Virus record (IMG/VR): IMGVR_UViG_2526164619_000007
Coordinates: 1-13,170 of that record
Length of the DNA stretch: 13,170 nt
DNA from: a virus
Lineage: Duplodnaviria > Heunggongvirae > Uroviricota > Caudoviricetes
Direction: 5' to 3' (one strand)
Shown here: piece by piece, positions 3,177 through 5,323 of the stretch
Layout: each line of letters starts with the position of its first letter
Numbering within the stretch: position 1 is the first letter of the stretch
Notes under the pieces: generated by a model
Told to the model about the DNA's origin: nothing
The model's input: the letters and a program-made list of their open reading frames with translations, nothing else
Databases searched by the model: none
Position numbers and translations under genes: made by a program

Positions 3177-3931
3177 ATGAGCATGAAACTAATGGCAAAA
3201 GCAATGGAAATTAAAGTGGGTAATCCATTGCGTAAGCTGGTTCTGATTAAGCTGGCTGATAATGCCAGCGATCAGTGCGAGTGCTGGCCCAGCTACCAGT
3301 ATATCGCTGACCAGTGCGAGATTAGCAAGCGTTCTGTGATTAATCATATTGCGGCGCTTTGTGAGTCCGGGCTGGTAAAAAAATCACCCGGAAAGGTGAA
3401 AAAGGTAATACAAGTAATATCTATCTCCTTCATCTGGATGGTGCAGAAAATTTACCGGGGAATAGTGCAAATAATTCGCTACATTGTGCATCAGATGCAT
3501 CGGGTAGCGCAGGAGTTGCACCTGTTGCCAGTGCAGGAGTTGCACCCAGAACCAGTCACTCTTTTGAACCAGTCAATGAACCTGATGTTGGTGGATCTGC
3601 TGACGCAGATCCACAGGTCAGTCATCGCGCAAAAAACAACATCGACTGGCAGAGGGTTCTGGACAGCTATCACGAAATCCTGCCTGAAATGCCATCAGTG
3701 AAAATTCTAACGGATACCAGGAAAAAAAATCTGCGGACGTTCTGGCAGAAATTCGGTTTTGACCAGCAGCGATGGGAGTCCTATCTGCGATACGTTGCTG
3801 AGAACTGTCGCTGGATGCTGGAAGATCGTCCCAATGGCAGCGGTGGGTTCTGGAAGCGTAAAAACCTGGATTACCTGATCACCGAACGGTGCTATGTCGC
3901 TGTCAAAGAGGCGCGGGCAAATGACAGATAA
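3177..3931 (+). pseudogene. YdaU-like prophage replication-region protein, disrupted by a frameshift near 3375-3400
   Basis: N-terminal ORF in frame 0 (3177-3701). Frame 2 is open from 3365 to the stop at 3931 and reads as more protein-like sequence; the switch lies in A-runs at 3377-3383 / 3399-3403. Confidence 0.6.
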
Positions 3932-5323
3932 CACCTTTCCGGTGCCATACCGGGTCGATGCCGAACAGGCAGTGCTGGGGTGCCTGATGGTAAACACCGA
4001 CACTGAGCGTGCGGGGCTGGTGTATTCGATGCTGAAACCGGAGTCGTTTTACGTTGCGGCGCACAGGGTTATTTTCCGTGAAATTCGCGGACTTTTCCGT
4101 GCCGGAAAGCCTACGGACCTGCTCAGCCTTGCGAACGTGATCGAGGCGAAAAAACTGGATGCTGAGACTGGTGGCTTTGCGTACCTTGCTGAAATCAGCA
4201 GGAGTGCCACGCTATCGGCGATGGTTCACTACGCCGGGATTGTGCGGGAAAAATCCATCCAGCGGTACGCGGTGGAAAAATTACATGCGTGCATCGGGAT
4301 CATGAATCAGCCGACAGACACGAGTGCGACAGAACGACTTGGCGCAGTTCAACAGGTCATTGGCACGGTGGCAGAGTATGCCAGAACAGGAAAAACAGGG
4401 GTCTGCGTCCGGTAAGTGATGTGGTTAACGACTGGATTGATGATCTTGAGCGTCGCTTTTCCAGCCCGGAGAACGCAGCGGGTCTGACGCTGGGGATTAG
4501 CTCTCTGGATCGGCTTATGGCCCCCAAACATGTGCTACGTGGTTCGCTGGTAGTGATTGGTGCAAGGCCGAAAATGGGTAAAAGCGCCTCGCTGAACAGG
4601 ATTGTGACGCATTTTGCTCTGAATCATCGTCTGCCCACACTGGTATTCACCCTGGAAATGACAGATCGCAGCCTGGTTGAGCGCATGGTTGCGCAGGAGG
4701 CGAGGGTAAATTCTGAAATTTTTTATGTCGGTGCCAGTGATGACTCGGATATGGCGCGGGCGATGGCGAAAGCCGCAGAACTGGCAGAATCAAACCTGAT
4801 GATTGACAGCACACCAGGGGTAACGCTGGCCCATGTGATCGCTGAATGCCGAAAGGTTAAGCGTCAGCGTGGTGTTGTCGGCCTTGTGGCGATCGATTAC
4901 CTGACGCTGATGAAGGCGGAAGCCGCGGAGCGTCGTGATATTGTTTTCGGGGATATCACAACGGGCTTAAAAAATCTCGCTAAAGAGCTGGACTGCGTGG
5001 TTTTACTTCTGACGCAACTTAACCGAAAACTCGAGGACAGGGCAGATAAACGCCCCACACCAAGCGACAGTCGCGACACCGGGCAGATTGAACAGGATTG
5101 CGATGTGTGGATTGGGTTGTACCGGGATGCTGTCTACAACCGTAACGCAGACTCTCAGCTTATGGAGCTGATTCTCCGTCTGAACAGGGAGGGAGCAACA
5201 GGAACAGCATACGCCCTGATGGATAACGGTTCAGTGACTGATGTCAGCGCAGAGGATGCTGCCAGACGTCTGAGACTTGGTGGTCCGGCACGTAAACCCT
5301 ACGCACAGACGGAGGATTTCTGA
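3921..5323 (+). pseudogene. DnaB-family replicative helicase, frameshifted around 4385-4400
   Basis: N-terminal domain in frame 0 (MTDNTFPVPYRVDAEQAVLGCLM...) stops at 4415. Frame 2 carries Walker A GARPKMGKS, Walker B VAIDYL and QLNR...ADKRP...RDTGQIEQDCD; the shift lies in ggaaaaacagggg. Confidence 0.8.

What the first reader, a model, noticed from the sequence alone, without database searches (positions are those of the whole stretch)
3177..5323. Both replication genes are frameshifted at homopolymer runs: real decay or sequencing error
The ydaU-like gene and the DnaB-like helicase each switch frame inside A/G homopolymer stretches. IS1 copy 2 (TTT to TT) and IS911 copy 2 (A7 to A6, plus several single-base losses near 13140-13150) also show homopolymer-length changes. 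That density in 13 kb fits either pseudogenisation of a cryptic prophage or homopolymer miscalls in the assembly.
Basis: seen in the sequence. Interest (0 to 1): 0.45.

Follow-up and report, generated by a model that had tools for sequence, protein, structure and literature searches.

The report
Decaying prophage replication genes, draft-assembly indels
The window is the end of a draft Shigella flexneri K-315 contig carrying a dead Rac-type prophage: the helicase frameshift is a real inherited mutation, while the other single-base losses are private to this draft and are probably sequencing or assembly errors, so the finding is ordinary.

Summary
The "decay or error" question has a different answer at each site.

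- **Source:** the window is identical to the last 13,170 nt (less one base) of draft contig AKMY01000018.1, Shigella flexneri K-315. It covers an IS-riddled Rac-type cryptic prophage next to ttcA.
- **Helicase (3921-5323):** one C was lost (GGCGG to GGGG, 4398-4401). This is not a homopolymer-length change. The same deletion occurs in 10-11 contigs from other assemblies, so it is a real, inherited pseudogene.
- **Initiator (3177-3931):** A8 became A7 at 3377-3383. Nine contigs with the window's own haplotype, all carrying the helicase deletion, have A8 and an intact 251-aa gene. A7 appears only in K-315 and one 2010 read set, probably the same strain. I favour a miscall (about 0.6) over a very recent slip (about 0.4). 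The same A8-to-A7 change is real in another Shigella lineage.
- **IS1 TT, IS911 A6 and the 13135-13147 cluster:** none is shared by about 75,000 IS1 or 8,400 IS911 copies in complete E. coli genomes. The cluster lies 24-36 nt from the contig end, so these are likely artefacts.
- **Label:** the "ydaU-like" gene is a lambda-O-like initiator (HTH_36), not YdaU.

Interest is low.

The parts
3177..3931 (+). Lambda-O-like / P22 gp18-like replication initiator gene (HTH_36 N-terminal domain). It is frameshifted in this assembly: 174-aa product from 3177-3701, with the original frame resuming to 3931. Intact relatives encode 251 aa.
3377..3383 (+). A7 tract. It is A8 in intact relatives, including nine contigs with the window's own haplotype. 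This is the initiator frameshift site and is private to the K-315 draft and Logan SRR066119.
3921..5323 (+). DnaB-family replicative helicase pseudogene. N-terminal domain ORF 3921-4415 (164 aa); linker plus C-terminal ATPase ORF 4421-5323 (300 aa, GTG start). Intact relatives encode 467 aa.
4398..4401 (+). GGGG created by loss of the C of the ancestral GGCGG (codon 160/161). This is the helicase frameshift site, inherited and present in 10-11 contigs from other assemblies.
641..1408 (-). IS1 copy 1 (768 nt, InsA/InsB ORFs intact). It truncates the N-terminal part of intR and replaces the xis-recET early-left region.
9623..10389 (-). IS1 copy 2 (767 nt), a simple insertion in the ybcO-like region with a target duplication of about 8-9 bp. 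It differs from copy 1 by TTT to TT at 9804-9805 and two substitutions, truncating InsB to 129 aa. That product is known only from K-315.
10917..12165 (+). IS911 copy 1, complete, with canonical A7 after the orfA ATG and the canonical A AAA AAG frameshift site. It is inserted in the DUF1133 gene with a 3-bp target duplication.
12821..13170 (+). IS911 copy 2, first 350 nt only, running into the contig end. It has A6 instead of A7 at 12896-12901, and five gapped alignment columns at 13135-13147, which is 24-36 nt from the end of contig AKMY01000018.1.
5372..5377 (+). G6 run inside a 53-aa ORF (5323-5484). It reads G5 in several 2010-era read-set assemblies and in CP026839.1, but G6 in near-identical newer read-set assemblies. 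This shows homopolymer disagreement between data sets at this locus.

Best explanation
The window is the 3' end of a draft contig of Shigella flexneri K-315. It covers a defective Rac-type lambdoid prophage at ttcA, with the integrase truncated by IS1, the recombination region deleted, and late genes cut by IS1 and IS911.

Its replication module is of the P22 type. An O-like initiator with an HTH_36 domain would bind the phage origin and recruit the phage's own DnaB-family helicase.

- **Helicase:** a single C was lost at codon 160/161, just upstream of the linker helix. This separates the N-terminal domain (164 aa) from the linker plus ATPase domain (300 aa). The mutation is real, was inherited by a whole clade, and most likely abolishes helicase function (inferred).
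- **Initiator A8 to A7:** present only in this draft and in one 2010 read set, probably from the same strain. It is most likely a homopolymer undercall. The alternative is a very recent slippage in a gene already freed from selection.
- **IS1 TT, IS911 A6 and the contig-end cluster:** most likely consensus errors of a draft assembly in repeats and at a contig end.

No mechanism beyond ordinary prophage decay plus draft-sequence noise is needed.
For: - **Source:** the window is 100% identical to AKMY01000018.1 and ends one base before the contig end.
- **Intact relatives:** 99%-identical E. coli prophages have 251-aa and 467-aa genes, and the window differs by exactly two indels.
- **Helicase deletion is shared:** the 164-aa and 300-aa products occur on 10-11 contigs, namely GCA_049894805.1, Logan ERR6004833, ERR6006273, ERR6005190, ERR5961276, SRR066117 and SRR066119. 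All other haplotypes have GGCGG, and the intact helicase is on 140 contigs.
- **Split position:** it lies between Pfam DnaB (residues 9-110) and DnaB_C (188-431), just upstream of the segment that aligns with the E. coli DnaB linker.
- **A7 is private:** L004 and L006 have 0 substitutions against the window over 4.5 kb and 2.9 kb but carry A8. The intact 251-aa protein of this haplotype is on nine contigs, and every one whose sequence was shown also carries the helicase deletion.
- **Homopolymer disagreement between otherwise identical data sets at this locus:**
  - SRR061723 versus SRR061722 are identical over 3,631 nt except A8 versus A7.
  - SRR066117 has G5 where the window has G6, with 0 substitutions.
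  - SRR066119 has A4 where the window has A3 in ydaT.
  - CP026839.1 has G5 where ERR5984612 has G6.
- **IS indels are unshared:** none of about 75,000 IS1 or 8,400 IS911 places in 5,426 complete E. coli genomes has them. The 129-aa InsB is unique to K-315.
- **Contig end:** the 13135-13147 cluster lies 24-36 nt from the contig end and is mostly run-length change.
Against: - A8 to A7 is a genuine mutation elsewhere. The CP026839.1 lineage shares it with Logan ERR5984612, whose contig is listed for 5 samples with 2 similar places not shown. Real slippage at this tract therefore happens.
- Two assemblers, the GenBank K-315 assembly and Logan on SRR066119, both call A7. The neighbouring A8 at 3722-3729 is called correctly everywhere.
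- If SRR066119 is a sister strain rather than K-315 itself, A7 would be corroborated independently.
- I could not establish the sequencing platform of K-315.
- T3 to T2 in IS1 is not a typical flow-sequencing consensus error, and that copy also has two private substitutions, so it could be a truly diverged copy.
- Shigella genomes were not in the complete-genome collection searched for IS variants.
Confidence: 0.6

Rival explanations
1. Every indel is real. K-315 carries a progressively decaying prophage in which the helicase died first, in the clade ancestor. The initiator then slipped A8 to A7 very recently in K-315 alone, and individual IS1 and IS911 copies acquired private frameshifts.
For: - The nested pattern of a shared helicase deletion and a private A7 is what stepwise decay predicts.
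- A8 to A7 is corroborated by several samples in another Shigella lineage.
- The same two genes are inactivated independently elsewhere: W397*, A6 to A5 at 3631, and IS3-family insertion after codon 57.
- Both the GenBank and Logan assemblies give A7.
Against: - There are zero substitutions between K-315 and the A8 carriers over 4.5 kb, so the branch available for a private slip is very short.
- Data sets from the same era disagree at homopolymers with no accompanying substitutions.
- A cluster of five gapped alignment columns within 13 nt, 24-36 nt from a contig end, is not a plausible biological pattern.
- None of the IS indels is seen in any complete E. coli genome.
Confidence: 0.3
2. All the frameshifts, including the helicase one, are sequencing errors of a low-quality draft, and the prophage replication genes are really intact.
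For: The window comes from a draft assembly with visibly poor sequence at the contig end.
Against: - The helicase deletion is present, with identical flanks, in 10-11 contigs from other samples and other assemblers, including 2021-era read sets.
- It removes a C from GGCGG rather than shortening a run.
- The unique sequence is otherwise clean, with one indel in 8.4 kb against L003 and none in the 4.1 kb backbone.
Confidence: 0.02
3. The frameshifts are functionally tolerated or recoded. The A7 allele reads A_AAA_AAA in the zero frame, a -1 slippery heptamer, so ribosomal or transcriptional slippage could restore some full-length initiator. The helicase could act as a two-piece enzyme, with the N-terminal domain and a re-initiated linker plus C-terminal domain.
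For: - In the window frame the codons are GTA AAA AAA TCA, so a -1 slip restores the ancestral frame (direct reading of the sequence).
- The 300-aa ORF starts at a GTG 6 nt after the stop of the 164-aa ORF and keeps most of the linker-aligned segment and the whole ATPase domain.
Against: - The arrangement is not conserved. The most common intact initiator variant alone is on 392 contigs and the most common intact helicase variant on 140, each as a single ORF.
- There is no slippery site at the helicase shift and no evident ribosome-binding site before the GTG.
- The prophage lacks a full integrase, its recombination genes and intact late genes, so nothing would select for keeping replication.
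- From established knowledge of DnaB, C-terminal fragments keep ATPase activity but lose helicase activity.
Confidence: 0.03

Closest known systems
Rac-type cryptic lambdoid prophage at ttcA (intR site) of E. coli and Shigella
   Same: It has the same chromosomal site (zntB-dbpA-ttcA-intR). It has the same immunity and early-right order (DUF1391, cI-like, cro/ydaS, ydaT, replication genes, DUF1627, DUF977, hok/sok, DUF1367, ybcO, DUF1133, tRNAs). It is 99% identical over 4.5 kb to prophages annotated in nine E. coli genomes.
   Different: The replication module is O-like initiator plus DnaB-type helicase (P22 gene 18 / gene 12 type), not the ydaU/ydaV pair of K-12 Rac. The element is much more degraded here, with two IS1, two IS911, loss of xis-recET, and frameshifts.
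Phage P22 gene 18 / gene 12 replication module (initiator plus phage-encoded DnaB-type helicase)
   Same: It pairs an O-like HTH initiator (phrog_8540, phrog_345) with an overlapping downstream DnaB-family helicase (phrog_19; E=1.4e-72 to E. coli DnaB 6bbm over residues 9-433).
   Different: I did not compare it with the P22 proteins themselves; the likeness is by family and gene order. In this window both genes are interrupted.
Pseudogene and IS-driven genome decay in Shigella
   Same: There are several independent inactivations of the same non-essential genes in different Shigella lineages: the C deletion, W397*, A8 to A7, A6 to A5, and IS3-family insertion.
   Different: Nothing distinguishes this case; it is a textbook instance.
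Homopolymer-length consensus errors of flow-based or long-read draft assemblies
   Same: The errors sit at the longest runs, at contig ends and in repeats, and otherwise identical data sets disagree only at runs.
   Different: The platform used for K-315 could not be confirmed here. The helicase indel does not fit this category.

Membership tests
DnaB-family replicative helicase | N-terminal DnaB domain (PF00772) and C-terminal RecA-type DnaB_C domain (PF03796) | tested here: met
   PF00772 at 1e-24 on the 164-aa ORF and PF03796 at 7.6e-64 on the 300-aa ORF. The intact relative has both in one chain.
DnaB-family replicative helicase | Full-length collinear similarity to solved DnaB helicases | tested here: met
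   intact relative residues 9-433 align with E. coli DnaB (6bbm) residues 28-451, E=1.4e-72.
DnaB-family replicative helicase | Single uninterrupted reading frame joining N-terminal domain, linker and C-terminal domain | tested here: not met
   loss of C at 4398-4401 gives a stop at 4413-4415. In this window the gene is a pseudogene of the family, not a functional member.
Lambda-O-like / P22 gp18-like replication initiator | N-terminal winged-helix/HTH DNA-binding domain and match to phage initiator families | tested here: met
   PF13730 HTH_36 at 2.4e-11; phrog_8540 at 7.7e-66 and phrog_345 at 4e-50, both 'replication initiation O-like'.
Lambda-O-like / P22 gp18-like replication initiator | Intact C-terminal part, which by analogy with lambda O contacts the helicase or loader | tested here: not met
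   the A7 allele leaves residues 1-69 in frame and replaces the rest. This holds only if A7 is real in the strain.
Lambda-O-like / P22 gp18-like replication initiator | Origin iterons inside or next to the gene | tested here: inconclusive
   only one 17-nt direct repeat pair (3506-3522 and 3530-3546), which may simply encode a repeated peptide.
   at E<=0.01 the only Pfam hits are HTH_36, HTH_11, DnaD_N and B-block_TFIIIC. The gene is only a positional analogue of ydaU.
Programmed -1 frameshift or transcriptional-slippage gene | Slippery motif at the shift site | tested here: met
   For the initiator only: A_AAA_AAA in the zero frame at 3377-3383. There is none at the helicase site.
Programmed -1 frameshift or transcriptional-slippage gene | The two-frame arrangement is conserved among relatives | tested here: not met
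   relatives have A8 and a single 251-aa ORF (392 contigs for the commonest variant). The split forms are lineage-restricted.
Sequencing or assembly artefact | The variant is absent from independent data for the same haplotype | tested here: met
   Met for A7 and for the IS1 and IS911 indels. Not met for the helicase deletion.
Sequencing or assembly artefact | Raw reads of the same strain contradict the consensus | not testable with these tools
   No access to reads or SRA metadata. The platform was not found in the literature.

The most novel reading that the evidence does not exclude
The replication module of this prophage family is inactivated again and again in separate Shigella lineages by different lesions: helicase C deletion, helicase W397*, initiator A8 to A7, initiator A6 to A5, and IS insertion after codon 57. 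This could reflect selection rather than neutral decay. Once excision is lost, in-situ firing of the prophage origin would be harmful, and the A8 tract would then act as an easy off-switch, possibly leaky through A_AAA_AAA slippage.
Probability: 0.1. Interest if true: 0.35.

Novelty: already known. Interest (0 to 1): 0.1.

Why it matters
It matters mainly as a caution for annotation. One of the two "pseudogenes" is real and marks a clade. The other frameshifts are probably artefacts of a 2012 draft that have already entered protein databases, for example EIQ24331.1 'replication protein' of 172 aa and EIQ24342.1 'putative transposase' of 129 aa. Pseudogene counts for Shigella taken from such drafts would be inflated. 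Biologically this is routine prophage decay. The only mildly interesting point is the repeated, independent loss of the same replication genes in several Shigella lineages.

Tried and rejected
- **Sequencing platform of K-315:** I searched the literature. I found only strain metadata (Bangladesh, ST1512), nothing on the platform.
- **SRR066117 contig covering the A tract:** I looked it up through the exact YdaT protein. That protein is too widespread (827 blocks), and only finished chromosomes were returned. The look-up did show IS insertions in the initiator gene in many Shigella genomes.
- **Whole-assembly homopolymer noise:** rejected. The 4.1 kb backbone has no indel and the 8.4 kb of unique prophage sequence has only one.
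- **YdaU family membership:** rejected.
- **Programmed frameshifting:** rejected because the split arrangement is not conserved.
- **Phage collection:** the search gave only partial hits at about 88% to the first 400 nt of the initiator gene and did not help.
- **Not run:** I skipped the metagenome and GTDB scans, structure prediction and the large homology searches, because the exact-sequence look-ups had already answered the question.

Full report
**What the window is**

The window is byte-for-byte identical to positions 6819-19988 of locus L016. That locus is the last 20 kb of contig AKMY01000018.1 (234,077 nt) of the draft assembly GCA_000268165.1, Shigella flexneri K-315. The contig ends one base after the window. 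A published strain table lists K-315 as a Bangladeshi gastroenteritis isolate, ST1512 (PMC6397287).

Upstream of the window lie zntB, dbpA and ttcA, so the element sits at the Rac attachment site. The gene order, is:

| Window position | Feature |
|---|---|
| 1-654 (-) | C-terminal half of intR |
| 641-1408 | IS1 copy 1 |
| 1620-1931 | DUF1391 gene |
| 1968-2375 (-) | cI-like repressor |
| 2420-2680 | P22-type cro |
| 2664-3086 | ydaT |
| 3177-5323 | the two replication genes |
| 5323-5484 | 53-aa ORF |
| 5490-7073 | DUF1627, DUF977 and a 137-aa ORF |
| 7221-7907 | QueH-like gene |
| 7965-8290 | hok/sok |
| 8824-9465 | DUF1367 |
| after 9465 | truncated ybcO |
| 9623-10389 | IS1 copy 2 |
| 10391-10916 and 12166-12350 (approx.) | DUF1133 gene, split by IS911 copy 1 |
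| 10917-12165 | IS911 copy 1 |
| 12524-12756 | three tRNAs, followed by a truncated fourth |
| 12821-13170 | first 350 nt of IS911 copy 2, running into the contig end |

This is a heavily degraded cryptic prophage.

**Checking the observation**

Nine complete E. coli genomes carry the same replication region at 99.3-99.6% identity, with a match span of 2303 nt against 2301 nt in the window for most of them. In those genomes RefSeq annotates two intact genes:
- a 756-nt 'helix-turn-helix domain-containing protein' of 251 aa
- an overlapping 1404-nt 'replicative DNA helicase' of 467 aa

A base-by-base alignment of window 2658-7159 with L002 gives 39 substitutions and exactly two indels:
- A8 to A7 at window 3377-3383
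- loss of the C in ACAGGCGGTCTG, giving ACAGGGGTCTG at 4398-4401

The translations agree. The initiator reads 174 aa and then stops, with the ancestral frame open to 3931. The helicase reads 164 aa to a stop at 4413-4415, and the ancestral frame continues from 4421 to 5323.

So the frameshifts are there. Only the first is a homopolymer-length change. The second is a deletion of a non-run base that happens to create a G4.

**What the genes are**

Gene 1 has Pfam HTH_36 (2.4e-11). It matches PHROG families annotated 'replication initiation O-like' (phrog_8540 at 7.7e-66, phrog_345 at 4e-50). It gives no YdaU/DUF1376 hit.

Gene 2 has the DnaB N-terminal and DnaB_C domains. In its intact form it aligns over residues 9-433 with E. 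coli DnaB (6bbm, E=1.4e-72).

The module is therefore of the P22 gene 18 / gene 12 kind, not the ydaU/ydaV kind. The helicase deletion falls at residue 160/161. In the DnaB alignment this is just upstream of the segment corresponding to the linker helix. It separates the N-terminal domain from the linker plus ATPase domain.

**Is the helicase frameshift real? Yes.**

- The exact 164-aa product is in the 15-billion-protein collection on 10-11 contigs, and the exact 300-aa product on 8-10.
- The carriers are NCBI assembly GCA_049894805.1 and Logan assemblies of ERR6004833, ERR6006273, ERR6005190, ERR5961276, SRR066117 and SRR066119. Several further samples hold the same contig.
- All carriers have GGGG, and all other haplotypes have GGCGG.
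- Different samples, different assemblers and read sets a decade apart agree. This is an inherited mutation that marks a clade.

**Is the initiator frameshift real? Unresolved, probably not.**

Evidence against A7 being real:
- L004 (ERR6004833) has no substitution against the window over 4,549 nt, and L006 none over 2,901 nt. L003 differs only by a 17-substitution patch far away in the QueH gene. All three have A8 and a 251-aa initiator.
- The intact protein of exactly this haplotype is on nine contigs. Every one whose sequence was shown also carries the helicase deletion.
- A7 with this haplotype occurs only in the K-315 GenBank assembly and in the Logan assembly of SRR066119.
- That run is from 2010. 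Because the 300-aa product has only the K-315 GenBank accession, I infer the run most likely belongs to K-315 itself. If so, it is not independent evidence.

Evidence that data sets at this locus disagree at homopolymers and nowhere else:
- SRR061723 and SRR061722 are identical over 3,631 nt except A8 versus A7 at this same tract.
- SRR066117 has G5 where the window has G6 at 5372, with no substitutions.
- SRR066119 has A4 where the window and all relatives have A3 in ydaT.
- CP026839.1 has G5 where the near-identical ERR5984612 assembly has G6.

Evidence that A7 could be real:
- A8 to A7 is certainly a real mutation in another lineage. CP026839.1 and ERR5984612 (contig listed for five samples, with two similar places not shown) share it, together with a helicase W397* nonsense change.
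- The tract is therefore a true slippage hotspot.
- The true sequence has two A8 runs in this stretch, at 3377 and 3722, and the second is called correctly in every data set.

Weighing the very short private branch (no substitutions in 4.5 kb) against the evident homopolymer noise, I put about 0.6 on a miscall and 0.4 on a very recent slip.

**The IS copies**

- **IS1 copy 2** differs from copy 1 by TTT to TT at 9804-9805 and by two substitutions.
- **IS911 copy 2** differs from copy 1 by A7 to A6 at 12896-12901 and by one substitution. It also has a cluster at 13135-13147: AAA to AA, TT to T, A6 to A4, and an inserted A.
- That cluster is 24-36 nt from the end of the contig and overlies the canonical IS911 A AAA AAG site. 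Four run-length changes within 13 nt at a contig end is the signature of poor end-of-contig consensus.
- In 5,426 complete E. coli genomes, none of about 8,400 IS911 places matches better than 98.3% over 354 nt (350 in the window). None of about 75,000 IS1 places matches better than 99.6% over 768 nt (767 in the window).
- The resulting 129-aa InsB is known only from K-315.
- Both IS insertions are genuine events with target duplications. The IS1 junctions are shared with L003.
- The internal indels are unsupported and are probably artefacts. Shigella finished genomes were not in the collection I could search, so private real variants cannot be excluded.

**How noisy is the assembly?**

It is not very noisy in unique sequence. 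There is one indel in 8.4 kb against L003. There is none in the 4.1 kb zntB-dbpA-ttcA backbone, where all three genes are full length. The apparent density of indels in 13 kb comes from one real mutation, one doubtful long-run call, and indels in repeats or at the contig end.

**Mechanism and comparison**

In the intact phage, the O-like initiator would bind the origin and load the phage's own DnaB-type helicase. This rests on established knowledge of lambdoid and P22 replication; it was not tested here.

In the K-315 clade the helicase is cut between the N-terminal domain and the linker. From what is known of DnaB fragments, this should abolish helicase action even if the 300-aa part were re-initiated at the GTG at 4421.

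The element also lacks a complete integrase, its recombination genes and intact late genes. Replication genes are therefore under no selection, and further lesions are expected.

Other Shigella lineages have inactivated the same module in other ways:
- W397* in the helicase
- A6 to A5 at 3631 in the initiator
- A8 to A7 in the initiator
- IS3-family insertion after codon 57 of the initiator in many finished chromosomes

This is the familiar pattern of Shigella genome decay.

**Verdict**

Nothing new in kind is present. Interest is low: the value lies in separating one real clade-marking pseudogene from probable draft errors that have reached protein databases.

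Noticed in passing
window 3177-5323; loci L010/L017/L018, L011-L013, L015, L019, L026-L035: The same prophage replication module is knocked out independently in several Shigella lineages. The lesions are helicase W397* (TGG to TGA), initiator A6 to A5 at window-equivalent 3631, initiator A8 to A7 corroborated by several samples, an 11-nt deletion plus other changes in L019, and an IS3-family insertion after codon 57 of the initiator in many finished chromosomes.
   Followed up: partly
window 5372-5377 (ORF 5323-5484): This G run reads G6 in the window and in newer read-set assemblies, but G5 in SRR066117, SRR061722/3, SRR040460, AMGB01 and CP026839.1. The run length decides whether a 53-aa ORF exists. 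CP026839.1 (G5) and ERR5984612 (G6) are otherwise almost identical, so G5 looks like a platform artefact.
   Followed up: partly
window 7475-7742: All 17 substitutions between the window and the otherwise identical L003 (8.4 kb) fall in a 270-nt patch of the QueH-like gene (7221-7907). This suggests a short recombination tract or a paralogue mix-up in one of the assemblies.
   Followed up: no
window 12862-13170: The A7 to A6 change just after the IS911 orfA ATG puts the orfA body in frame with an upstream ATG at 12862. The called gene at this position in AKMY01 is accordingly a 103-aa N-terminally extended HTH_Tnp_1 ORF running to the contig end.
   Followed up: partly
window 3375-3386: In the A7 allele the zero-frame reading is GTA AAA AAA TCA, that is, A_AAA_AAA, a -1 slippery heptamer. 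A -1 slip there would restore the ancestral initiator frame, so the allele, if real, could be leaky.
   Followed up: no
window 3506-3546: There is a 17-nt direct repeat (AGCGCAGGAGTTGCACC and AGTGCAGGAGTTGCACC, 24 nt apart) inside the initiator gene. It could be origin iterons or simply a repeated SAGVAP peptide in the linker.
   Followed up: no
window 7965-8290: An apparently intact hok/sok toxin-antitoxin locus survives in the degraded prophage (Rfam sok at 117 bits; 70-aa ORF at 8078-8290, where the identical contig L003 has a 70-aa Hok/Gef-family (PF01848) gene).
   Followed up: no
window 12524-12823: A prophage tRNA cluster is present: tRNA with CAT anticodon (annotated tRNA-Ile in RefSeq relatives), tRNA-Arg(TCT) and tRNA-Thr(TGT). 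A fourth tRNA (tRNA-Val in L002) is truncated by the IS911 copy 2 insertion at 12821.
   Followed up: partly
window 1-1408 versus L001 1-6500: IS1 copy 1 abuts the C-terminal half of intR and replaces about 6 kb of the early-left region present in E. coli relatives (xis, DUF1187, AAA ATPase, gam, recE, ydaE, rha). The element therefore cannot excise.
   Followed up: partly
L005 (Logan SRR066119) beyond window 5929: Several short-read contigs (L004, L006, L007) stop at window 5929, and L005 continues into a divergent DUF1627 paralogue with 35 substitutions in 260 nt. This indicates a second related prophage copy in these genomes and a repeat boundary at 5929.
   Followed up: no
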